A DNA stretch of 64,000 nucleotides from positions 1 through 64,000 of IMG/VR virus record IMGVR_UViG_3300012205_000277, one strand, 5' to 3'. Made by a program: the position numbers and the translations under genes. The notes under the pieces were generated by a model. The model had not been told where the DNA came from, did no database searches, and was given only the letters and a program-made list of their open reading frames with translations. The DNA comes from a virus. Below are positions 6,553-62,071 of the stretch, in pieces (the first letter of the stretch is position 1; the number at the start of each line of letters is the position of its first letter).

Positions 6553-7097
6553 TCGGGGCGTTGGAAGATCGCGAAACCTACGACGGAGGGCAATACCAGA
6601 TGGGGCCAATCCCGCGCGGCGGCAAAGCTTCCGTACATATTCTGGTAGGCTACGCAGGCATCGTGCCAGCAGACAATCCCGCCGGGAGCAATATTGTGGT
6701 CTCCAAGGCTCATCAATTCCTTCTCGCGCACATTCGGGTCGCCGGAATCGATGTGGACAAAATGCATTGGCGAGGTCCTTGAAGCAAGAAGGTCTTGCCC
6801 TGACATCTGCACGACATCCACCATCGGCAGGTCTAAGAATCGTTGGCGCGCCGGACCGATGCGCTCTGGATCGATGTCGCAGGTAATCAAGCGTCCCGTG
6901 CCGTTATCGCGGAGAGCCCGGCCAATCCATTCGGCCGAATCGCCGACAAACGTGCCGGTTTCAATGCAGACGATCGGCTTAACCATCCGGACTAGCCCGT
7001 AAAGGAGCGCACCCACTTCCTGTTCGACCCCGCGGCCTTCGACCATGTTGTACTGGCTACGCGGTCGACCCGCCGGCAATGCTTGGTACTGTCGCAC
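6549..7097 (-). CDS. Class I SAM-dependent methyltransferase (Methyltransf_24-like)
   Basis: IETGTFVGDS, CDID, FVHIDS, GGIVCWHD. Confidence 0.85.
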   Translation of the reverse strand: MRQYQALPAGRPRSQYNMVEGRGVEQEVGALLYGLVRMVKPIVCIETGTFVGDSAEWIGRALRDNGTGRLITCDIDPERIGPARQRFLDLPMVDVVQMSGQDLLASRTSPMHFVHIDSGDPNVREKELMSLGDHNIAPGGIVCWHDACVAYQNMYGSFAAARDWPHLVLPSVVGFAIFQRPE

Positions 7098-8097
7098 GGT
7101 TCATCACCTTTCCGATCATTTTCTGGAGCATGCCTTCAAGGGTATAGTCCCGCCGCACCAACTCGCCGCCGGCGCGCGCGATTCTTTCACATTCTTCGGG
7201 ATGTTCCAGGTAATACTTGACTTGCTTCCCGTTGTTGGCGAAAAATCCCAGCTCATAGTAGACGATATGGATTCCCTCTTTAAAAATCGTGAGGTTCTTG
7301 GCGGCATCGCCCGGGAAACGCGGAAACATGACCAACGTATCGCTGGCCATGATATCGAAGGTTTTTTCCACCAGCAATCGTGACATTGGGGGCAAAAGAA
7401 AAAAAATTCTTATCTGACGGTAGTTCTCCGCCAGAAGCTCGGTCGTTTCGCGTTCGCGAAGCCCGCCGAGATCCTGGACGAGAACGCAGCCGGAATAGAA
7501 AGTGGTTTTTGCGCCGACGTGCTGGATCAGCTTCATCAGATATTCATGCCGTTGCTGATAGAGCGAGCCGATGAAGCCGAGATCGTATTTCTTTAGCTTA
7601 CTGATAATCGGTCCATCCGACAGACCGTTCAATGTCGGCGGATGGAAGATCGTGGTATCGGCGCCGTACGGCAGCCACTCGCCGCCATATTTTTCAGCGT
7701 CCTGGGCTGCCGGGAAGGAATAGTACCTTGCCCATTTCTTCAGTTCCGGCACGCGCTGCGGCAGCCAGAGGTCGCCGCGGTCCATGGACTCATCGAACCG
7801 CGCGAGCACCGGCACTTTCTCCATGAGCAGCTCCCACTGCTCGAATGGATATATCACTTTGAGCCAGGGCTGGGTGTATTCGTGATAGAACGAAATTACC
7901 AAATCCGATTCAAGCAACTGTTCCATGGTCGGCATCTTGGCCAGGATTTCAGCAGTGACTTGCACGGTGTTGCCGGGGAAAAAGCAATCGCGCACTTCAT
8001 GTCCCATTCTCGTCAGCGTATTGTAATAGCCGCCGAGAGCGTAGCTGCAGGCCAAAAAATTCCGCGGGTAAAAAATCGCGATCTTCACGGTTTCCAA
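7057..8097 (-). CDS. GT-B glycosyltransferase (CgeB/YkvP-like)
   Basis: WLPYGAD..IFHP, YDLGFIGS, KTFDIMA, YYLEHPEE.ERIARAG. Confidence 0.75.
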   Translation of the reverse strand: METVKIAIFYPRNFLACSYALGGYYNTLTRMGHEVRDCFFPGNTVQVTAEILAKMPTMEQLLESDLVISFYHEYTQPWLKVIYPFEQWELLMEKVPVLARFDESMDRGDLWLPQRVPELKKWARYYSFPAAQDAEKYGGEWLPYGADTTIFHPPTLNGLSDGPIISKLKKYDLGFIGSLYQQRHEYLMKLIQHVGAKTTFYSGCVLVQDLGGLRERETTELLAENYRQIRIFFLLPPMSRLLVEKTFDIMASDTLVMFPRFPGDAAKNLTIFKEGIHIVYYELGFFANNGKQVKYYLEHPEECERIARAGGELVRRDYTLEGMLQKMIGKVMNRATVPSIAGGSTA

Positions 8098-8438
8098 CCT
8101 CTTGTGGTTTCCGCGGCCTTCGGTATATCGTAGCTGATGCCAAACTCGGTCGCGCGCATCCCGGGGAATTTTTCTTCGTATTGTCCGGAAAGATGGTCGG
8201 CTTCCTCGATCATCTGCTTCTGAAATTCTTCCACCGTAAAAATTCCTTTCTTGACCAAGAGGCCCAGCAAGGCGTTTAATTCAGCGCGCATCAGGATGGT
8301 AACTTCGCGATGATCTTTGACGGCCTTGCATTCCGCATCGGTATCGCTGCGCGTGCCCAACTGCCAGGCAGCAAAGGGCTGCCGCCACTTCGTCAAGATG
8401 TTCAGGTGGCGCATCAATTCTTGCTCTAGTTCAGCCAT
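8085..8438 (-). CDS. Hypothetical protein
   Basis: Operonic ORF. Confidence 0.65.
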   Translation of the reverse strand: MAELEQELMRHLNILTKWRQPFAAWQLGTRSDTDAECKAVKDHREVTILMRAELNALLGLLVKKGIFTVEEFQKQMIEEADHLSGQYEEKFPGMRATEFGISYDIPKAAETTRGWKP

Positions 8439-8884
8439 TAGGGATGCTCCTGTTGAAACATTTGAAACGTGGTCCGCCGCCCACAGGTCTTGCAGCAGAA
8501 CGTTTCCATACTGAAGTCGGGCTCGAACCCGGACGTGGATCCACAGCCTCTGCAGGCGAGCTCCGCCTGCAAGCCGATTTGGCCGAGATTGAAGTAATCG
8601 TTGAAGTCGCGGAATTGGGTTAGGTTTGGATTTTTCTTGATTGCCTGGCCAAGCGCTTCCTCATCGAGTGCGCCATTGGGCATTATCCAGCGCGGGCCGG
8701 GTAATTCCCAGGACCTAGGTGCGACCAGCGGCTGCCAGGTTTCCGGCCATTTCCATGGTGTACTTGGATTTGTAACGGACGGCCTAGCAACAGTGGGTGC
8801 GGATGCGATGGATGCTTGCGGCTCCGGCTCCGCAGGCGAGCAGATTTCCGAATCTTCGAGCACGATCCTGCGGTCGAGCGCCAT
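8438..8884 (-). CDS. Hypothetical protein with C-terminal zinc ribbon
   Basis: CRGCG...CKTCG. Confidence 0.6.
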   Translation of the reverse strand: MALDRRIVLEDSEICSPAEPEPQASIASAPTVARPSVTNPSTPWKWPETWQPLVAPRSWELPGPRWIMPNGALDEEALGQAIKKNPNLTQFRDFNDYFNLGQIGLQAELACRGCGSTSGFEPDFSMETFCCKTCGRRTTFQMFQQEHP

Positions 8885-8920
8885 CGGCGGATTCTATAAT
8901 AGAAAATCTAAGAGGGCAAG

Positions 8921-9154
8921 TTATTGGGCGGTGATTTTTACGATTTGCTCGATTGGGATAAACGTCAGTACGCCGCTGGCATCTGTAAACCAAAACCCGC
9001 CGGAGCGCACAATATTCGAAACCATCAAGCTATAATCGGCCTGACTGCCTCCCGCTGAAACGATAGTTATCGTCACAGTCGTCGTTGTGATTACGGCTGG
9101 CGAAGCCCCGCTGTAGACTAAATAGGTGATTATTATTGTGGTTGGATTTGCCAA
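8921..9154 (-). CDS. Small hypothetical (possibly virion) protein
   Basis: TTG start with AGGGG SD; Thr/Ile-rich. Confidence 0.6.
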   Translation of the reverse strand: MANPTTIIITYLVYSGASPAVITTTTVTITIVSAGGSQADYSLMVSNIVRSGGFWFTDASGVLTFIPIEQIVKITAQ

Positions 9155-9176
9155 CTTAGCCCCTTAGATGTATACT
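9148..9176 (+). promoter_or_regulatory. sigma70 promoter of pentamer RNA 1
   Basis: TTGCCA-N17-TATACT. Confidence 0.75.
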
Positions 9177-9180
9177 TATG

Positions 9181-9275
9181 TTCGGCGTGGATAAGCCAGG
9201 TATGACTATATGGGCTGCGGCAAGACTTGCAATGGCAGGCAAGGCCGAGGGAGCGAATTCTGCTCCCTCTTTTTT
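9181..9275 (+). ncRNA. Pentamer-repeat (GGN-NN) candidate guide RNA 1
   Basis: 10 pentamers 9184-9233 plus GGCAGGC; own promoter and own terminator. Confidence 0.7.
9247..9275 (+). terminator. Rho-independent terminator
   Basis: GAGGGAGC-7nt-GCTCCCTC followed by T6. Confidence 0.8.
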
Positions 9276-9289
9276 CACCTGAATTCGCA

Positions 9290-9544
9290 TTACGTAACGT
9301 CCGGAGTGCCTTCGTCGATGATGCCCGGTTTTTGGCCGCCGTAAATATAAGCTTGATAATTCGTTACGGCCGTTTGTGCCGCTTGATAGGCAGCTTTGTT
9401 CGTTTCGCTGGTTTCGATGCCGGCCTGATAAGTAGCCAACGTCGACGCTGCCGTCGCCTGCAAAACGGCGAGCTGCGTCAATTGCGCCGCTGTCGGAACA
9501 TGAGGCGCATCTGCGCCTTGCGGATTCCCTGCTGCTGCTGGCAT
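9290..9544 (-). CDS. Small protein downstream of the capsid gene
   Basis: GGAG SD; position in the head operon. Confidence 0.65.
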   Translation of the reverse strand: MPAAAGNPQGADAPHVPTAAQLTQLAVLQATAASTLATYQAGIETSETNKAAYQAAQTAVTNYQAYIYGGQKPGIIDEGTPDVT

Positions 9545-9576
9545 AGGCCCTCTCCTTCAGAAATCGCCAGCCGCTA

Positions 9577-11256
9577 TCAGGCCGGGGCGACGAACGGTCC
9601 GCAGCCGGTGCGGATCGCGGAAACCCATGGCATGTAGTGCGCCAGGACTTCCTGTACGTAGGTACCGAAGGTCCACTGGCGCGTCACGATCGGCCATTCG
9701 ATCGCGTAGTAGTCGCGCTGCATGAGGAACGTGCGTACCGCGGGGATCCGGCTGTGCGGATACGGGTTCTTGTTGATGTCATAGAGCATCGTGCCTTGCG
9801 GGAACATGGGGTGAATGCGAATCGGGATAGTGTCGCCGCCGGTCGGGTTGACGCTGTACTTCGATTTGTAACCGGTCACGACGAACCCGCCGAGGATGCC
9901 GGCTTGCTGCTCCATCTGGCTGACCTGGAACATGTAGCTGTTGTTCCCGGTCGAAGAGAAGATGATGGCGGACTCGAGGTTGGCTTTGACGTCGGCGGAA
10001 ACCCAAATGGCATCGGGCTGCGCCTGGAAGTTGGTCCAGAGATATTGGAGGTCGCTTTCGAGTTCGGCGACTTGGCCGTTGCCTGCCGGAGTGAACGATC
10101 CGCCGTTCATATCGGTCCACAGGCCGTTCTGGAAAGTATAGGTGCCCAAGCCGTCGAAATCGGTTGGCTGGAAGCTGTTGTCGGTCGAGAGCCCGGCGGC
10201 GTTGCCAAGTTGGGTGCCGGCGGCGACGGCGGAAATCGTGTAGTTCGGCCAAGCAGTGATGGCGCCAAGCTTGACGTTGCCGGTGGCGGCGGTGACGTTG
10301 ACGCCCCAGAACCAGGCATAACCAACGGCACCCTTTACGGCGGGCACGGAAACGGTGACTTTCTGGGCCGTGGCGTTGGTCGTAACGATGGCGGCCACGT
10401 TTGAAATCGAGCTGCAGCCGCAAGCCACGTTCGTCGTGCTGCCATCGGCGTTCGTCCGGCTATAACTCGGGGTGATGCCGTTGACAACGCTTGGCGGCGC
10501 CGCATAACCGGCTTGGCCGCCCGGGTTCATGCCGTAAGCGGTGATGGCCACGACTGCGGCGACAACGTTTGCGCCGTTGCCAAGAGCGGTGCCGGCAATC
10601 AAGGTCGAGGTTACGTTCGGAGCCTGCCCAAGGGCGAAACCGAGGTTTCCCGCCGCCGTGCCGCTGTTGCCCCACAGCGTCATCATCTCTTCTTGCAGGC
10701 GCAGGCGCGCCAGGTTGCGGAAATGCTCATCGGCCAGGTTGTCGGTGTAGCCTTCGCCGGCAAACTGTGCCGTGAAGGTTTCCCCGCCTTCCATGCCGAG
10801 TTCCTTGTAGGTGGCCAGGTAATCGATTTCGTTCGGGGTGGCCGTCGCGTTGCGCTGCCCTTCGAGCACGCCGGCATAGACAAACGTGGAATTCGGATTG
10901 CGCGTGGCCTTCCAATGCGCCGCGGTGCCGACGCCATCGTTGACGCGGCCTTGGCGGGGGATCATCTGGATGAACGGAGTGAGCAGCGGGAAAATGAAGT
11001 AGGCCGGTCCCCGGAGGTCGAAAAAGTTGAAGCCCGTGCTGGTCGTGACGCCCGCCTTGATCAGCGCGCGCCCGACCGCCTTGACGAGCGGGTGATCCCA
11101 GTTCCAATCCTTCGGGTCGACTTCGCCGCCCAGCGTCTTCGGCATGGCTCGCTTCATCAAGATAGCGAGTTCCGATCCAGGAGCGTACGCCTTGGCCATG
11201 CTGCTGCGCGACCCGGCCATGGCGGCTTTGTAAAAATTCTGATCCATGCTTTTCAT
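9577..11256 (-). CDS. Putative major capsid protein with central beta-rich insertion
   Basis: Follows protease and scaffold; strong codon bias; DLRGPA..IFPLLTP...IPR and IRIHP.FP.GT segments. Confidence 0.75.
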   Translation of the reverse strand: MKSMDQNFYKAAMAGSRSSMAKAYAPGSELAILMKRAMPKTLGGEVDPKDWNWDHPLVKAVGRALIKAGVTTSTGFNFFDLRGPAYFIFPLLTPFIQMIPRQGRVNDGVGTAAHWKATRNPNSTFVYAGVLEGQRNATATPNEIDYLATYKELGMEGGETFTAQFAGEGYTDNLADEHFRNLARLRLQEEMMTLWGNSGTAAGNLGFALGQAPNVTSTLIAGTALGNGANVVAAVVAITAYGMNPGGQAGYAAPPSVVNGITPSYSRTNADGSTTNVACGCSSISNVAAIVTTNATAQKVTVSVPAVKGAVGYAWFWGVNVTAATGNVKLGAITAWPNYTISAVAAGTQLGNAAGLSTDNSFQPTDFDGLGTYTFQNGLWTDMNGGSFTPAGNGQVAELESDLQYLWTNFQAQPDAIWVSADVKANLESAIIFSSTGNNSYMFQVSQMEQQAGILGGFVVTGYKSKYSVNPTGGDTIPIRIHPMFPQGTMLYDINKNPYPHSRIPAVRTFLMQRDYYAIEWPIVTRQWTFGTYVQEVLAHYMPWVSAIRTGCGPFVAPA

Positions 11257-11307
11257 TGCTGTGCTCCTAACGGAAATTTCGCTTCTTGAATCTTGGAACC
11301 GGCCTTA

Positions 11308-12025: not shown

Positions 12026-13228
12026 TTAGGCCACGCGCGCCTTGACTTCGGCAAGCATTTCGCGCGTCTCTTCGTCCACCATGGCGACCAGCGTCTGTGT
12101 CAGCGCGGCCACGTTACCGGCCAGCATCTCGGGCAACTGCGAATTTTCGTCCAGTTCGTATTCCTGCTCGCAGGCAACCGAAAACACCAGGCAGGCCAGT
12201 TCCTCGAGCGAACAGGCTAAGCGCGAAACTTCCCACATGCCCTTGGCCAGCTTCCCCATATCGGCGTCGAGCGCGGCCAAGCGCTGGCTGGCAATCTTTT
12301 CCAGGTTCTGATTCAGATAAACCCGCGCGGACTTGCGCATCAGGGTGCGGATGGCGGCAATCTTCGTTTCCTCGGTAGTCACATCGACCCCGAATTTCTT
12401 GGCGGCAGCAACGATCTTGCCGCGTACTTTGGCCTTCTCTTTTTCCGGCGCGGCCACCATCTTCGCAATGCTCCGGCGGACATAGCCGGCTTCGTGCACC
12501 GGATAGTCCCAAGTTTCCGTCTTGTCGAGGTCGGGAACATGCGCAAAAGCCGTGCTCTCTAAATCCTTTCCGCCTATTCGCTTGGTTTTCTTGACTGGCG
12601 TTGCTGCTGCTGCTGCCGCGGGCATGATCCCTGTCGTAATCGGCGTCGCTTTGACTGCCTTCAAGAGGCTGACTTCGGCCTCGAGCGCCGCGATCCGCGG
12701 ATCGGATCCAGGAACTTCCGTCTTGAGGAACTTGCGCATTTCAATGCTTCCGTCGGTCTTTATGTATGCGAAGTGAGCCGTTGGGAGGCAGGGGTTGTCG
12801 ACTAAAGAAATTTCTGACGGATTCGCCACGTAGCGCATGCAGTTTTTGAAAACCGGATCGGGAACTTGATTGCCGACTTTGCGGCCGCCTTGAGAAAAAC
12901 CGGTGTAAACTCGCTCTTCGACTTTTTTCCAGGCATCGTCGTCAATTACCTTAAAAGTCATTTCGATCTCTTTGTCGGAGTCATCGAAATTGAATCCGAT
13001 GCCCTTGCCCACCGCGGAAAGCTGATGCATTTCTCGCAACGGCATGATATTCGCGCCGTCGGTGGCTTTTGACATTTCCGTGATCAGCGCCTGGTAGTAG
13101 GGCTTGGATTTTTCATAATCGCAAACTTCAAGATCCTTATCGGGCAATTCGGCGGTGACGATGCCCGACACTTCGCGCTTGGCGGCATTCACCTTTGTAA
13201 AAGGGAGGAATTTTAAGAGGTCAGACAT
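12026..13228 (-). CDS. Prohead protease with C-terminal extension
   Basis: REMHQ (His), YTGFSQGG (Ser), EISLVDNP. Confidence 0.82.
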   Translation of the reverse strand: MSDLLKFLPFTKVNAAKREVSGIVTAELPDKDLEVCDYEKSKPYYQALITEMSKATDGANIMPLREMHQLSAVGKGIGFNFDDSDKEIEMTFKVIDDDAWKKVEERVYTGFSQGGRKVGNQVPDPVFKNCMRYVANPSEISLVDNPCLPTAHFAYIKTDGSIEMRKFLKTEVPGSDPRIAALEAEVSLLKAVKATPITTGIMPAAAAAATPVKKTKRIGGKDLESTAFAHVPDLDKTETWDYPVHEAGYVRRSIAKMVAAPEKEKAKVRGKIVAAAKKFGVDVTTEETKIAAIRTLMRKSARVYLNQNLEKIASQRLAALDADMGKLAKGMWEVSRLACSLEELACLVFSVACEQEYELDENSQLPEMLAGNVAALTQTLVAMVDEETREMLAEVKARVA

Positions 13229-13412
13229 TTCACAAAAACCGTATCGAAGAAATGCACCACATACAACTAATTTCTTATAACTAGGATTGGCAGCATTAGA
13301 AACTTAGGCTGCGGGGAATAAAAACTTAGGCTGTTTCTGTTAAAATCAAGCGGCGGACGGCTGTTGAAAGCAGCGCGCCCGCCAGCATAACGAGTCGTTG
13401 GAGGACTCAACC

Positions 13413-13892
13413 ATGCGCTCTCACTTTAATGGCAAACCGGTACAGTTTCAATGGTTGATTCACCGGGTCAAAGAACACAAATCAAATAAATGTCTATTCT
13501 GGGATGGCCGTCTTGAGAAAACCGGATATGCAAGGATTCGGTCAGAGAATGGTCCAAAGGAATTCGTCCATCGAATAGCATATCGGCTGTTTGTAAAACC
13601 AATCCCGAAAGGCAAGTTTGTTCTGCATCATTGCGACAATCGTTCTTGTTTTTGGTATATGCATCTTTATCTTGGTACAAAGAAGAAGAATTCGGAGGAT
13701 ATGGTCGAACGCGGGAGAAGCATGCGCGGAGAAAGGAATTGTAAAGCAAAGCTCACACCAGAAAATGTTATTGAGATACGAAGGCTTTACAAAGAAGGAA
13801 TCAATGCAACGGTCTTGGGATTCCGCTTCGGGGTGGATAGAACCGTAGCGTGGCAGGCCGCCACGCGAAGAACATGGAAATATTTAACCTGA
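13413..13892 (+). CDS. HNH endonuclease (zinc-binding type), antisense to the head operon
   Basis: HRIAY..F...IPKG..VLHHCDN..C....HL.LGT...N..DM..RGR, AKLT...V.EIR; GGAGG SD. Confidence 0.88.
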   Translation: MRSHFNGKPVQFQWLIHRVKEHKSNKCLFWDGRLEKTGYARIRSENGPKEFVHRIAYRLFVKPIPKGKFVLHHCDNRSCFWYMHLYLGTKKKNSEDMVERGRSMRGERNCKAKLTPENVIEIRRLYKEGINATVLGFRFGVDRTVAWQAATRRTWKYLT

Positions 13893-18727: not shown

Positions 18728-21700
18728 AAATCCCAAGGCGGCGAAGCCGTTCGCTCGGGAGTATCAGTTTCCCGAGGTCCTGTACGGTGTAATCGATTCC
18801 GCTATAAACCAAATTCCTCAGCGTAAATACTTCGCCTTCGATCCCGCTGCCGGCATCCACATATTTTTGTGCGTCGGCTTTCGGATCCAAGTACGCGACG
18901 CAAATGTGCGGCTTATATTCCGGATGGGTTTCTGTGTGCGGGAGTACTTTCAGATCCTCGTGTAACTTTCGCAATTTTTCGCTTTCGATTCGAATTACCA
19001 AAGGCACGCCATCTTCACCAACCGGGAAAGCTTCAAGTCCTTCGATCGTAACTTCTATATCGCCAATTCCTTTGGTGATTTTGTTGATTTGTTTGGCGGT
19101 CACTTCGGCGTGAAAACCCCAAAGTACGGTGACGTGCGGAGCGACATCCCTCCCCTTTTTGGCAAAATCTTCTTCCTCGACTGGAATCGCCAGCACCCGC
19201 TGGGCATCATCGGCCGATAGATTGAATTGGACGCTTCCATATTTGCGTTTCTCGAGAATGTTGCCGAGGATCTTCTGGAACCGGCCGGAAACGGACGTGA
19301 GCTGGGAATTGAACACTTTACGTACAGCATGCTGGATGGCGTGGACGGCTTGTTCGGATTCGGCCGTCAGTACGCCGGCTTCAATACGCGATCCGAGCCG
19401 CTTTTCGAATAACGCTTCGCGAATTTTTTTTTTACCGTCGAGGCTTTCCTTGCCGTTCTCGGCCCCGGTGTTTCTTCCCGTCGACCGGCCGCCACCAGCT
19501 TCCTGGCTGACGGGGGTTCCGCCGCGCGTGGCATTGTGCCCGCCGGCGCCGTTCGTTGCGGGTTTCATAGGCGGTGCCGTGGGCGTTACCGGATGCGGCT
19601 TGATATTTCCCTTTTCATCGACCATCAATCCCGCGGTTGCCGGAGCGACGCCCACCGGAATGAATCCGGTCCCGCTGATCACCCCGAGCTGGTCGGCTTC
19701 CGGCTCCGGCCGCAATTCCTCGCCAACGCGCTTCCGGGCTTCGTTCGGGGTCAGCACGGCTTTCCCGACCAGCATCGTAAGCGCCGCGGCATTCTTCAGC
19801 GGATCCGGCTCGGCATAGGGGTTGATCGCGATTTCATAATCGGTCATGCCCATCTTGCGCTGGATGATGAAATCGATGATCCCTTTGACCCAGAGCACCC
19901 AGGGAAGCGTCCCTTCGACTTCGGCGGCGTCCGAAGACGATTTGCCTTCCGTGCGGATCATCTTCATCAGCCGCTGGGGGCTTGTCCCGTAGCCAAAAGC
20001 GATTTCGCGGATATGCTTTTCGTCGTAGAGCCCGGCCAGGAGCGGCTCTTTCGGGAAAAGAATCTGGTCGATTTTGCCTGGTTCGTTGAATCCTTGCACG
20101 AGCCGCCACTGGTTGCGCTTCGCGAGGTTCCCGGCCAGCTGCGAGTTCATCCATTCCATCGCTTCTTCGATGCGGTCGGGTGAGGTTCCACGTGGAACGA
20201 CTTGAACGACGCCGGGAACGGATCCTTCGGTATTCCCGGACCATGCAACTTTTCCGTTGCGACGGACATAAAGGAATTTATTGGGAACACAGACGCAGCA
20301 AACGGGGCCGCTATATTGTTCGCGGGTTGCGGTCCATCCGCGCGTATTTATGCCTTTACGGCGCGTGACCATCCAGCCAATTCGAGATTTACCTGAACGG
20401 CTATCGGGAAACTTTGCGGTTTGCGCCTTGCGTGTCCATGTTGTTGAAGCATCACCCATCTTCTGGATGATTTCTGTGAGTTGGTCAGCTAGTTTCTTAC
20501 TGACTGTGAACACCTGCGGAGTTCCGGAAGCGCATCCATCACCCATCCAATAATACTTCCAAAAAATCTCCAATTGGCGCGTGGTGGTATCGCGAATATC
20601 ATCCGGGATGAATTTTTGATGCGAATGGCCAAGTGGTTTCAGAAAGTCAACGAGCACTCGGCGCTGAAACTCGAACTGATGGCCGGAATAACATGGCTCG
20701 TCACCGAGAATATCCGCAAGCAGTTTTAGGTAGAGTTCATAACTGCCACGTGTATCTCTTTTCTTTTGGGCAATCTGAATAGACCTTCTGCGCGTAGAGC
20801 CTTCTGCTAAATACATGCCCATGAAAGCGCAATATTGGTCACCAGTCATGCGGACTTCGAGTGGATCTGGGCCACTTCGCTTTTTTGTTGACTTGAACAC
20901 CTTCTCAGAAATCTCAGTTCCCATCCATACAGATGACTGCGGGATTCCGGTGCGTCCGGAATACACTTCTGCCAGTGCATCGGCTTCAATGACAAATTCT
21001 TTTTTGCGCCCAGGCTTGCCTTTTCCAAGAGCGCGAGGCAGTGAATCAACAAGCATCCGATGGTTTGGTGTAACGAGCAGATCCAAACTTTGGCCCTTAA
21101 AGTGGACCATCTCCCCTTCGTAATGTTTATAAAAAGTGTCGTATGCTTTTTGCCACTCAAAGATTCCTGTTTGAATTTGACGTGTCGCAAATTCATCATT
21201 CTCATTTGTTTCTGCAAAACGGAACCAGCCGCGTTTTGTCAAGACTTCGGTATCATCGGAGTAGCAATAGTAGGCAAGAACGAACTGCATGCGTTTGATG
21301 CCGATTTGAATTTCCGGGGCAAGTTGTTCAGTCACGGAATTCCCGTATAGCTGAGAGGCCAGCGTATTGCGGGGCACGATGCTGCGCGGCTTGTAAACGA
21401 GTTGGTCCGTAGTTAGGTCGACCAGCGGCAAGCCCCACCAGTTTTGGGCATAAGCCGGGCTCGGCGGCATGGGCGTAAATCCGTTGTTATCTATATAGCG
21501 CGTGATCATCTCCCCTCTTATCGTAGGGAGTTCCGCGATTTCTCCTTTGTATGTTTTCCTGATCAAAATGCTGGGCGCATCGATGACCAGCAGATCGTCG
21601 AGCAGCGGCCGAAGCCATTCCTGCCAGTTGTGCTCGCGGTCGGGATATTCAAAGAACCGGTTCAGTTTGATCAGGTCGTCTTTGTTGTCTTTGGCGCGCT

Positions 21701-41876: not shown

Positions 41877-42115
41877 GACGGTTATTCTGGCACGAGCGTC
41901 ACGATTTGGATATCGTTTTCAACGCGGACTTCGCTAACTTTCCACCAGACGGATCTTTCACAGATCGGATCGCCAACGGCATAAAGCCGGCTGTATAGCA
42001 TGGGCTCTTCCCAGAGAACATCACCGTCGTGGATATAGCGAATCGTGTTGATAACATCGGCCATGGAGAGTTCTCCTCGGGCGGAGTCTAACATATTTAG
42101 GGTGTAAGAAAGTAG

Positions 42116-56982: not shown

Positions 56983-57550
56983 GTGCTGTGATTATATCAA
57001 TCTTTGTCTCTATGTTTCAAGCCAGCGAGGCATGTGCTGCCTTACGGCTGTAGCAACCGCTGGATATATAATTTTGCCTTATCGTAGCCCCAGGCATGAA
57101 TCGAATGGTCAATCTTGGTGACGTCCTCATTCGGGAACACAACGTCAGCCGGGCCAGCGACTGACGGTTCCCAATTTATTGCGATGACTCGCTTGCGCCA
57201 GCCCAAAGTGACTCGGCCTTTCCTTGTGGTTATGGTGTACCACGGCTTCTGGCTGCAACAAGGCTGGGAGCAATAGCCGTTGGGAATTTCCTCTACGAAA
57301 ATTAGCCCGGTAAGCGAAAAGGGTTCAAATAGGCCAACCAGTGCTTGGCGTTCAACTTCCCGTTCGACGGCAACATCGGGATCGAGCCGCGCTGTTTCCA
57401 GCTCCAATGCTTCTACCAGTTTGTCGGCTAAGTCCCTCGCGGCGCGTTCATCGGCTTCGGTTACCGGCCGATGCAAAGAAACGCGAACCTCGATGCCCAA
57501 AGCATGCTTGCCAATGATTTCCTGCTTGTAAAGTGTCTTGTATTCGAGAT

Positions 57551-58438
57551 TCATGGTCGTCCTTTCTTTTTATGCTTCAAGTCCTCAGCAATATTGCGAC
57601 GAATTGTTCGCCAAGCTTTTTGCGCGCGCAAACTGCCGATGCTCGAAGCACCGCCGCATGTCGGACAAATGGTCAGGTGTGGCAGTTTGCATTTCAACTC
57701 CGAACACTTCCACGGCTTGTGGCATTTCTCGCAATCGTGGGTGTGTACTGGAAGGATTTTCAAATCCCCATTTGGAAGACCTTCCCGTTTATCACCGAGG
57801 AGCAATTCCACTTGCAATTTGTTTAGCGCGTCCCGAACATTGAATTGAACGCTCTTGGCCAGATCGCAGAAATTTACAGGATATTTGCCGCCCTCTTTCT
57901 TGTAAATCGCGCCTAAGTAGGCTCCAAGTTCTTCTTCCAGGGTTTCGGCATCGAATTCGAGCACGCTGCACCTGGACATAAATCGAGGCTCCAGATTCAA
58001 TCTGCTGTTGGCTGTGAAAATGAAAATGGTTTTCGGCGGCCATGCGGTCGAATCCATTTTGGACAGGAGAGAGATTTGGGCCGCTGGCGACATTTTATCG
58101 GCCTCGTGAATAGAGAGGATATGCCAGTCGCAGGTTTTGCCGGTATCGAAATTGAATGCGCCGTATCTGCACATTTCCGTCTCGCGCCTTACCCGGTCCA
58201 GGTCGCATTCAGCGCTCGGGACTTCGTGAAGTTCGGCATTGATTTCTTCGGCGATGGCCTGTACCAGGGCCGTTTTCCCAAGGCCAGATCCGCCGAGAAA
58301 GAACCAGCTATGTTCGAATGGTTTCTTGACGAATGGTTCGATCGTGCGTTTCACCTTCATCAATCCGATGAATTCGCTCACTCGCCGCGGGCGGTATTTC
58401 TCCGTTAGTGGCTCGGGGAACGGCAAGCTTTTCGTCAC
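57551..58438 (-). CDS. Clamp-loader-like AAA+ ATPase (RFC/DnaX clade) with Cys/His-rich tail
   Basis: LTEKYRP, G.SG.GKT, IHEADKM, TAN, SRC. Confidence 0.8.
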   Translation of the reverse strand: MTKSLPFPEPLTEKYRPRRVSEFIGLMKVKRTIEPFVKKPFEHSWFFLGGSGLGKTALVQAIAEEINAELHEVPSAECDLDRVRRETEMCRYGAFNFDTGKTCDWHILSIHEADKMSPAAQISLLSKMDSTAWPPKTIFIFTANSRLNLEPRFMSRCSVLEFDAETLEEELGAYLGAIYKKEGGKYPVNFCDLAKSVQFNVRDALNKLQVELLLGDKREGLPNGDLKILPVHTHDCEKCHKPWKCSELKCKLPHLTICPTCGGASSIGSLRAQKAWRTIRRNIAEDLKHKKKGRP

Positions 58439-61461: not shown

Positions 61462-62071
61462 TTCGTTTCTCCCTTGCAAAACTTCCAGGCGTCTTGCTGC
61501 CCTTTAAATAACTTTCCCTTGCTTATTGAGGAAGGCTTTCCAAGTGAACCGCGTGCACTCGCATTGGAGGCATTCAAGATGATGCAGGTCTCCGCCATGC
61601 TGTGACCTCTTGTGGCCGCAGCAGCAGAGTTCTTCGATGACCTTTGACCAATCGCGTTTCTTCTTCTTCATCAGGCTAGTTTCCGGCCATTGCGATTGCG
61701 CGCTTGATTGTTCGGGTAGAAAGACGCATTGTGAAATAGGTCCACTTCCGCCCCACTTTCGTGCTGAAAATCTTACCGCCTGCAAGTTGTGGCTTCAGAT
61801 GAATCGCTTTCATTTGGTTTCTCCTTTTTGTTATCGAGCATGTGTTTCGATAAATTCAGCGGCCTTGATGGCCATTGCCCGCCGATCGTCCATCGATACG
61901 GCTGTCTGTGAATGGCTTGGCCCTATCAGCCATCCGGCCCAGAACGCCAGTGCCGGCCCGGCCTCGGAATCAGATACTTCTGGTACTTCTCCGGTAAGCT
62001 GATACTGCCGCAGCCATTCGCTCACTTTCATGTTTGGTACCTCTTAAAATTAGCGGCGGTTCCCGGCCCGC

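What the first reader, a model, noticed from the sequence alone, without database searches (positions are those of the whole stretch)
9148..9275. RNA 1 is a complete transcription unit that appears to target its own promoter and the start of gene 8921-9154
The NN string GT TA CA AT TA GG GC AA TT AT predicts the + strand pattern AT.AA.TT.GC.CC.TA.AT.TG.TA.AC. The sequence at 9153-9175 reads AAcTTaGCcCCtTAgATgTAtAC. Six consecutive units match, or eight if the atypical AGCCA unit is looped out. The site covers the promoter spacer and -10 box, plus the SD and TTG of the divergent gene. Inference: autoregulation, or a target conserved in relatives.
Basis: partly seen in the sequence, partly recalled or inferred. 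Interest (0 to 1): 0.82.

Follow-up and report, generated by a model that had tools for sequence, protein, structure and literature searches.

The report
VIPR guide RNA matching own promoter
RNA 1 is a guide-RNA gene of the CRISPR-like VIPR system (described in 2026) in a soil phage. Its partial match to its own promoter is real, but it looks more like the phage's own spared copy of a site aimed at rival strains than like self-regulation.

Summary
Window 9148-9275(+) has a sigma-70-like promoter, ten 5-nt units and a tail with a terminator. The variable dinucleotides, read with the one-base skip, match 9153-9169 at six consecutive units, or eight if one guide unit is skipped.

The element is a VIPR guide RNA (vrRNA), one of at least eight scattered through this 92-kb phage record. 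This scan has already found VIPR on other DNA.

The match is not chance: only 3 of 20,000 shuffled guides give a six-unit run in the 351-nt locus. But it does not meet the published targeting rule. The gapless match is 13/20 (65%; the rule needs 80% or more), and the one relative shows no compensating changes.

That relative, a sister phage, carries the orthologous guide. It matches this phage's neighbouring gene (9290-9544) at 24 of 24 read bases, while the sister's own copy has an extra codon.

By analogy, I read RNA 1's promoter match as the phage's own register-shifted (3 bp shorter) copy of a site aimed at rival or ancestral alleles of this locus. Autoregulation and a decaying guide remain possible.

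No fully matching target and no Vipr gene were found. The record is about 60% complete.

The parts
9148..9176 (+). Promoter of RNA 1: -35 TTGCCA, 17-nt spacer, -10 TATACT
   Evidence: Consensus scan, 10 of 12. The sister phage keeps TATACT but 3 nt further downstream, as an extended -10 (TGTTATACT), with a poor -35 (CCGCCA).
9153..9175 (+). Period-3 site complementary to the guide dinucleotides: six exact units at 9153-9169, then TA.AC after a register break
   Evidence: A run of six or more occurred in 3 of 20,000 shuffles in this locus.
9186..9235 (+). Guide tract: ten 5-nt units with NN = GT TA CA AT TA GG GC AA TT AT
   Evidence: A soil-metagenome variant has G at 9194 and 9209 (scaffold positions) with NN unchanged.
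9236..9275 (+). Conserved 3' tail (CAGGCAAGGCC...) with a terminator hairpin at 9247-9269 and a T-run
   Evidence: Terminator scan. The tail is nearly identical in the sister phage while the guide tract differs. The end motif GGCAGGC is shared with other guides of this genome.
8921..9154 (-). 77-aa gene (TTG start) whose start codon and Shine-Dalgarno-like run lie under the site. It diverges fast between the sister phages.
   Evidence: ORF list, translation. tblastn to the sister gives 38% identity, against 75-98% for neighbouring genes.
9290..9544 (-). 84-aa gene next to the RNA 1 terminator. Its C-terminal codons are the target of the sister phage's orthologous guide.
9315..9349 (+). Site matched at 12 of 12 units (24 of 24 bases) by the sister's RNA 1 ortholog. 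The skipped bases fall on codon third positions.
   Evidence: Phase: 9317-9290 = 27. The sister's own allele scores 16/26 and has an extra codon (GGNNKPGIY against GG-QKPGII).
42086..42114 (-). Second partial site of RNA 1 (14/20; six exact units CC.TA.AT.TG.TA.AC) on an extended -10 promoter (TGTTAGACT) of a small gene starting at ATG 42065
   Evidence: The core is identical in the sister phage.

Best explanation
RNA 1 is a stand-alone gene for a VIPR guide RNA (vrRNA) of about 93 nt. It has ten 5-nt units whose two variable bases would pair with DNA at two of every three bases when held by a Vipr filament, followed by a conserved tail that doubles as a terminator.

Its match to its own promoter is most likely not a working self-target. 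I read it as the phage's own spared copy of the site the guide spells: the control region of the RNA 1 locus (guide promoter plus the ribosome-binding site and start of the next late gene) in a rival or ancestral allele. That allele would have the 3-bp-longer, extended -10 architecture that the sister phage still has.

The phage's own promoter is 3 bp shorter, which breaks the register after six units. It also mismatches the tail-proximal unit and has gained a proper -35 box.

Shown: the anatomy, family membership, the statistics, the sister guide's perfect hit on this phage's neighbouring gene, and the indel-type escape of the sister's own copy.

Inferred: that RNA 1 acts on rivals, that a register break protects, and that a Vipr protein is available.
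For: Family membership:
- The unit scaffold and tail motif are shared with seven or more other tracts in the genome.
- It fits the published vrRNA description: 9-16 YNNGG units plus a tail, with a one-base skip.
- In the sister phage the promoter, tail and terminator are kept but the NN tract is different.

The code works at this locus:
- The sister's ortholog matches window 9315-9349 at 24 of 24 bases, in codon phase.
- It matches its own allele, which carries a one-codon insertion, at only 16/26.

The same layout holds for other guides here. Each one's best own-genome match is imperfect and lies next to the guide gene: RNA 2 at 19093 (21/28), 62-kb guide at 61899 (18/24), 87-kb guide at 86533 (19/24).

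Relation of RNA 1 to its own locus:
- RNA 1's dinucleotides relate non-randomly to the locus flanks in both phages. The own promoter has a six-unit run (3 of 20,000 shuffles).
- The sister locus has two 14/20 sites, one at the promoter and one at the tail (8 of 20,000 shuffles). The own tail scores only 10/20.
- The guide's extra TG unit is present in the sister's 3-bp-longer promoter and absent from the own one.

Both alleles occur in one soil sample.

Guides aimed at rivals' VIPR components are published.
Against: - No sequence with 80% or more match was found. There was no hit at 17/20 or better in nine relatives' records.
- There was no hit at 16/20 or better in 371 kb of fetched loci.
- The nine-unit pattern had no exact hit in IMG/VR, and its seven hits in GTDB genomes look like chance.
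- The sister's promoter is only marginally better than the own one (14 against 13 of 20).
- Only one relative carries the locus, so the direction of the 3-bp change is unknown.
- Two of the ten units have lost the otherwise invariant scaffold G, which fits a decaying guide.
- No Vipr gene was found in the record.
Confidence: 0.45

Rival explanations
1. Self-regulation, the first reader's idea, extended. With Vipr, RNA 1 binds partial six- to eight-unit sites on promoters in its own genome: its own promoter, and the promoter at 42086-42114. This damps its own synthesis and neighbouring genes, much as a long tracrRNA lets Cas9 repress its own promoter through a short match.
For: - There are two separate six-unit perfect runs in the phage's own genome, both over -10 regions. 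None of 2,000 shuffled guides gave two.
- The own-locus run is very unlikely by chance.
- The 42-kb site is conserved in the sister phage.
- VIPR silences from promoter-proximal sites on either strand.
Against: - Both sites score 65-70% gapless, below the 80% rule. Published surveys saw no self-targets.
- The structural work reports R-loop growth led by the guide's 5' edge, which I read as starting at the tail end. The tail-proximal units are mismatched at both sites.
- The two promoters resemble each other, so the two hits are not independent.
- There is no compensating change in the sister phage.
- A Vipr complex bound at 9153-9175 would also lie in the path of transcription of the downstream minus-strand structural genes, if they form one operon (gene order).
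Confidence: 0.2
2. A disarmed or decaying guide. RNA 1 descends from the guide against the 84-aa gene that the sister phage still carries. Unit insertions, deletions and substitutions scrambled it in a lineage that carries the sensitive allele, so it no longer has any target. The partial matches are historical residue plus promoter-like AT-rich composition.
For: - Its 5' units (xT TA [CA] AT TA GG) are homologous to the sister guide's TT TA AT TA GG, which spell the invariant YIYGG of the 84-aa protein.
- An intact copy of the sister's guide would hit this phage's own gene at 24 of 24 bases.
- Two units have lost the invariant G, while a metagenome variant keeps it.
- No full target was found anywhere.
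Against: - It does not explain why the non-homologous 3' units (GC AA TT) extend the match into the own promoter, giving the six-unit run seen in 3 of 20,000 shuffles.
- Promoter, tail and terminator are intact, and the NN string is unchanged in the variant seen in run X10.
Confidence: 0.25
3. Pure coincidence between an AT-rich guide and an AT-rich promoter.
For: The gapless identity is ordinary.
Against: Local shuffles give 1.5e-4 for the run and about 7e-4 for the 16-of-18 match with one unit skipped. The related pattern at the sister's locus arose in 8 of 20,000 shuffles.
Confidence: 0.05

Closest known systems
VIPR vrRNAs (Vipr RAMP protein plus vrRNA), e.g. type II of Escherichia phage SUSP1 and a Pseudomonas fulva prophage; bioRxiv 10.64898/2026.04.26.720920 and 10.64898/2026.04.26.720927
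   Same: - An RNA of about 100 nt with 9-16 pentamer units, fixed scaffold bases alternating with hypervariable NN, and a conserved 3' tail.
- The target is read with a one-base skip that falls on codon third positions.
- Phage-borne and aimed at related phages.
   Different: - The scaffold is looser: YNNGN, with only the first G invariant.
- The tail is a plain terminator hairpin rather than a demonstrated pseudoknot.
- The guide genes are scattered singly, some with promoter-like sequences just upstream, rather than flanking vipr.
- No vipr or vap gene was found in the 60%-complete record.
vrRNA-targeting and vipr-targeting solo vrRNAs of SUSP1-family phages; bioRxiv 10.64898/2026.10.15.759431
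   Same: - Guides directed at a rival's VIPR components, with a lower match to self than to rivals.
- RNA 1's best partial matches lie on the guide gene's own flanks, and its match to the sister's tail is better than to its own tail (14 against 10 of 20).
   Different: - The published footprints cross the repeat-tail junction or the vipr gene and score 0.8 or more.
- Here the sites are a promoter and a terminator loop at 0.65-0.70, and no full-scoring target is known.
Cas9 autoregulation by long-form tracrRNA, and Francisella scaRNA repression of an endogenous promoter through short partial matches
   Same: A guide RNA that uses a short partial match at a promoter to repress rather than attack. 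The autoregulation reading would work like this.
   Different: It is a different effector family with contiguous pairing. There is no evidence here that six gapped units suffice for Vipr binding.
Dispersed VIPR guides beside the phage's own mismatched allele, seen by this scan in this genome and in other phages (e1-6070572, e1-5745284)
   Same: The guide gene sits next to an imperfect own copy of what it spells. The sister strain's guide hits the other strain's allele. I re-tested this here for RNA 1's ortholog and for the own-genome hits.
   Different: For RNA 1 the neighbouring copy is a non-coding control region, its own promoter, not a coding sequence. The better-matching rival allele has not been found.

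Membership tests
VIPR vrRNA | Tandem pentamer units (9-16) with fixed scaffold positions alternating with a variable dinucleotide | tested here: met
   Ten units at 9186-9235. Position-4 G is present in 8 of 10 units, or 10 of 10 in the metagenome variant, and in 68 of 68 units of the seven other guides. Positions 2-3 are near-uniform in base use.
VIPR vrRNA | Conserved, structured 3' tail after the repeat tract (a pseudoknot in the SUSP1 clade) | tested here: inconclusive
   The tail CAGGCAAGGCC plus hairpin is conserved between the window and the sister phage, and the GGCAGGC motif is shared in the family. Only a terminator hairpin is predicted. I did not test for a pseudoknot.
VIPR vrRNA | NN positions hypervariable between orthologs while scaffold and tail are kept | tested here: met
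   In the window-sister alignment the tail is about 95% identical, while the guide tract differs in length (10 against about 16 units) and content.
VIPR vrRNA | Gapless one-base-skip complementarity of 80% or more to a natural target | tested here: not met
   For RNA 1 itself the best score is 14/20 (70%), and 13/20 at its own promoter. No hit at 17/20 or better in nine related records. For its sister ortholog the criterion is met: 24 of 24 on window 9315-9349. So the locus type is validated, but not this guide's target.
VIPR system | A Vipr (minimal RAMP) protein encoded by the same element | tested here: inconclusive
   - PF03787 gave no hit in the phage's own record or in five relatives.
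- A SUSP1-type G-loop motif was not found in the six-frame translation.
- One candidate, 57042-57554, folds confidently but is not RAMP-like.
- The record is about 60% complete, and longer contigs could not be fetched.
VIPR vrRNA | Expressed as a small RNA that co-purifies with Vipr | not testable with these tools
   All listed sequencing runs are DNA contigs.
Autoregulatory guide (self-promoter target) | Complementarity to the own promoter that reaches the system's functional threshold in one register | tested here: not met
   13/20 gapless. 16/18 only with one guide unit skipped. The published rule allows no gaps and needs 80% or more.
Autoregulatory guide (self-promoter target) | Guide and promoter co-vary in relatives | tested here: not met
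   Only one ortholog exists. The sister's promoter reads AC.TT.CC.CC.AA.TT.TG.TA.AC, while its guide keeps TA AT TA GG at the homologous units. The sister guide against its own promoter does not reach 14/26. With a single relative this test is weak.

The most novel reading that the evidence does not exclude
RNA 1 is a guide that acts on guide-gene promoters. Through a short gapped match it throttles its own promoter (and a related promoter at 42.1 kb). In rivals with the longer promoter form it shuts off the guide that attacks this phage's 84-aa gene.

This would be the first case of a VIPR guide working as a promoter-level regulator or anti-guide, with self-immunity set by a 3-bp register shift.
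Probability: 0.2. Interest if true: 0.65.

Novelty: new member of a known kind. Interest (0 to 1): 0.4.

Why it matters
VIPR is a newly described RNA-guided DNA-silencing system. How phages avoid silencing themselves, and whether guides can regulate rather than attack, is open.

This locus gives a clean natural pair. One strain's guide matches the other strain's gene at 24 of 24 bases, while its own copy escapes through a one-codon insertion. The other strain's guide matches its own promoter except for a 3-bp register shift.

If register-breaking indels are the usual route to self-immunity, that sets a testable design rule for VIPR targeting and for predicting targets. Gapless scoring would miss the phage's own copies.

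The specific claim of autoregulation is not supported at present.

Tried and rejected
- Rfam gathering scan of the window: only two tRNAs, no family for this RNA.
- GenBank phages, blastn with 7000-11300: no match.
- PHROGs and Pfam on neighbouring genes: the 559-aa gene matches an unnamed PHROG. The 77-, 84- and 148-aa genes matched nothing.
- Orthologs of the locus:
  - Of 33 IMG/VR relatives found through the 559-aa gene, only one (L001) has the RNA. In L017 the 84-aa and 77-aa gene homologs are about 110 nt apart.
  - A tail-pattern scan of IMG/VR gave the same contig plus six chance hits.
  - The metagenome scan gave the same sister phage on a 132.7-kb contig. That contig is not held for whole-record search.
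- Full-target searches:
  - The nine-unit pattern had 0 hits in IMG/VR.
  - It had 7 hits in GTDB genomes, all in unrelated AT-rich genomes, which I judge to be chance.
  - Allowing up to 3 mismatches in nine related records gave 0 hits.
- RNA 1 as a guide against an allele of the 84-aa gene: no allele among 14 aligned proteins fits V-Y-(H/Q)-I-Y-G-A.
- The sister's version of the 42.1-kb site scores 14/20 by hand, the same as the window's, so the site does not discriminate alleles.
- Vipr search:
  - PF03787, negative.
  - G-loop motif scan, negative.
  - Protein atlas, no usable hit.
  - AlphaFold model of 57042-57554 (pLDDT 94) against the PDB: no RAMP fold. The best matches were Mediator Med17C at Z 8.2 and the T4 MotA C-terminal domain at Z 6.9.
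The 134-kb contig that holds an identical 84-aa protein, and the contigs of intermediate alleles (P0002, P0004-P0006), could not be read.
- Sequencing runs: no RNA holder listed.
- One script call returned nothing and was rerun.

Full report
**What is there.** Window 9148-9275 (+) carries a sigma-70-type promoter: TTGCCA, 17 nt, TATACT, matching 10 of 12 consensus positions. It also has an intrinsic terminator, a 9-bp GC-rich stem at 9247-9269 followed by six T. Between them lie ten 5-nt units at 9186-9235: CGTGG ATAAG CCAGG TATGA CTATA TGGGC TGCGG CAAGA CTTGC AATGG. The tail CAGGCAAGGCC follows, leading into the hairpin. A transcript from about 9183 to 9275 would be about 93 nt. Rfam has no family for it. 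The unit lies on the opposite strand to a run of minus-strand structural genes, between an 84-aa gene (9290-9544) and a 77-aa gene (8921-9154).

**The observation.**
- The + strand at 9153-9175 reads AAcTTaGCcCCtTAgATgTAtAC.
- Units AA TT GC CC TA AT match exactly, and this is the only exact hit in the window.
- TA and AC follow if the guide's CA unit is skipped.
- The site fills the promoter spacer, overlaps the -10 box, and covers the TTG start and the AAGGGG run of the 77-aa gene.

**Is it more than chance?**
- Among 20,000 base-shuffled guides, 3 gave a run of six perfect units in the 351-nt locus.
- 1 of 1,500 reached 16 of 18 with one unit skipped.
- The gapless score of 13/20 is unremarkable.
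- So the relation is real, but it rests on a short run plus a register break.

**What it is.** Earlier notes of this scan on the same genome pointed me to the 2026 VIPR preprints, which I read.
- VIPR guide RNAs (vrRNAs) have 9-16 YNNGG units and an invariant tail.
- A filament of the small RAMP protein Vipr holds one unit per protomer.
- The NN bases pair with DNA while every third target base is skipped.
- The outcome is transcriptional silencing, mostly of rival phages and satellites.

RNA 1 fits this description. The 92-kb record holds at least eight such tracts, which end in GGCAGGC-like motifs and in several cases have promoter-like sequences just upstream. In the seven other tracts unit position 4 is G in 68 of 68 units, and positions 2-3 are unconstrained.

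**The ortholog.** It is L001/L039, and the same phage appears again on the 132.7-kb contig behind L041. There the tail and terminator are nearly identical. The guide tract is longer and different, apart from homologous 5' units.

**The code is active at this locus.**
- The sister's guide reads TT TA AT TA GG GG CA AA CC GG AT AT GA.
- With the one-base skip it matches window 9315-9349 at 12 of 12 units (24 of 24 bases).
- The skipped bases fall on third codon positions of the 84-aa gene. The matched codons spell YIYGGQKPGIID.
- The sister's own allele scores 16/26. It carries an extra codon (GGNNKPGIY) and an Ile-to-Tyr change.
- So the sister phage is armed against this phage's allele, and it protects its own copy largely by a register-breaking insertion.
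- A second sister guide matches window 12885 at 19/20.
- One soil sample holds both RNA 1 alleles.

**Does RNA 1 target its own promoter?** By the rules in use (gapless, 80% or more), it does not. The own promoter scores 65%, and the published surveys found no self-targets at that threshold. Several further points count against it:
- The fuller match needs a skipped unit.
The atypical units are ATAAG and CTATA, which have lost the invariant G. A metagenome variant has G at both positions with the NN string unchanged.
- The tail-proximal unit is mismatched. The structural preprint describes DNA engagement advancing at the guide's 5' edge, which I take to mean it starts at the tail end.
- The sister's promoter differs at the read positions (AC.TT.CC.CC.AA.TT.TG.TA.AC), and its guide does not follow.

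**What the match most likely means.**
- Other guides of this genome have their best, imperfect own-genome match right beside the guide gene.
- RNA 1 follows that pattern, except that the neighbouring copy is its own control region.
- The guide spells a site one unit (3 bp) longer than the own promoter. The missing TG unit is present in the sister's promoter. That promoter is 3 bp longer, has an extended -10 (TGTTATACT) and has a poor -35.
- The window's shorter promoter has a good -35 (TTGCCA) instead.
- RNA 1 also scores 14/20 on both the promoter and the terminator loop of the sister's guide gene. Two such sites arose in 8 of 20,000 shuffles. On its own tail it scores only 10/20.
- I therefore favour (0.45) a guide aimed at a rival or ancestral allele of this locus, with the own copy spared by the 3-bp register shift. 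This mirrors the sister's codon insertion. Guides aimed at rivals' VIPR parts are published.

**The weaknesses.** No allele with 80% or more match was found in IMG/VR, in nine related records, in 371 kb of fetched loci or in GTDB genomes. Only one relative carries the locus.

**Rival readings.**
- *Self-regulation (0.2).* A second six-unit run lies on another promoter at 42086-42114, and it is conserved in the sister phage. None of 2,000 shuffles gave two such runs. However, the two promoters share a CCCT(A/T)A...TAnACT architecture, so the two hits are not independent.
- *A decaying descendant of the ancestral guide against the 84-aa gene (0.25).* This fits the homologous 5' units, the lost scaffold Gs and the absence of any target. 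It does not explain why the non-homologous units extend the promoter match.
- *Chance (0.05).*

**Effector.** I found no Vipr gene.
- PF03787 gave nothing.
- A SUSP1-type G-loop motif scan gave nothing.
- One candidate, 57042-57554, folds well but is not a RAMP.
- The record is about 60% complete and relatives are 150-180 kb, so the question stays open.

**Novelty.** VIPR is already described, and this scan has met it in several phages, including this genome. RNA 1 is a new member. The points of interest are the non-coding, self-locus position of its partial match and the indel route to self-immunity seen in both strains.

Noticed in passing
L001 minus strand about 1880-1650 (window-equivalent about 13379-13600); window 12873-12915 and 13398-13892: The sister phage has a guide array where this phage has a 164-aa ORF with an HNH-type motif (HHCDNRSC; low GC3). 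Both sit behind a similar AACTTAGG-containing upstream region. One sister guide matches window 12885, inside gene 12026-13228, at 19/20 with a nine-unit run.
   Followed up: partly
window 9194 and 9209: In soil run X10 a contig differs from the window at exactly these two bases (A>G, T>G). Both changes restore the invariant scaffold G of units 2 and 5 and leave every NN base unchanged.
   Followed up: yes
window 9161(+), 42102(-), 55139(-); genome 71082(-): Four promoters share CCCT(A/T)A, then 2-9 nt, then TAnA(A/C)T; 0.8 are expected from shuffles. The heptamer AACTTAG also sits beside many guide genes (9153, 18592, 55131, 62157, 87272). It may be a common operator or promoter element.
   Followed up: partly
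window 57042-57554 (-): A 170-aa protein belongs to a large unannotated family found on big phage contigs. The AlphaFold model is confident (pLDDT 94). Its C-terminal domain weakly resembles Mediator Med17C and the T4 MotA C-terminal domain (Z 7-8). In the sister's 132.7-kb contig the homolog appears split into two ORFs.
   Followed up: partly
window 8921-9154 (-) against L001 6173-6367: The 77-aa gene is only 38% identical between phages whose flanking genes are 75-98% identical. A run X3 contig joins 8899 to 9141, so the gene is replaced or missing in a co-occurring strain.
   Followed up: partly
sister RNA 1 ortholog (L039 about 1590-1670); genome 87219(-): In some guides the 5-nt frame slips by one base two units before the tail (...TGAGA A CGAGG CGTGG CTGGC...). 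This recalls the 'staggered' overlapping vrRNAs mentioned in the VIPR preprint.
   Followed up: no
genome 69781-70614 (-), beyond the window: A 277-aa ORF starts MSTKVWKGFLNFGLLSIPVYL, which looks like a Ku-type DNA-end-binding protein. I judged this by eye only. It lies just downstream of the guide at 70710.
   Followed up: no
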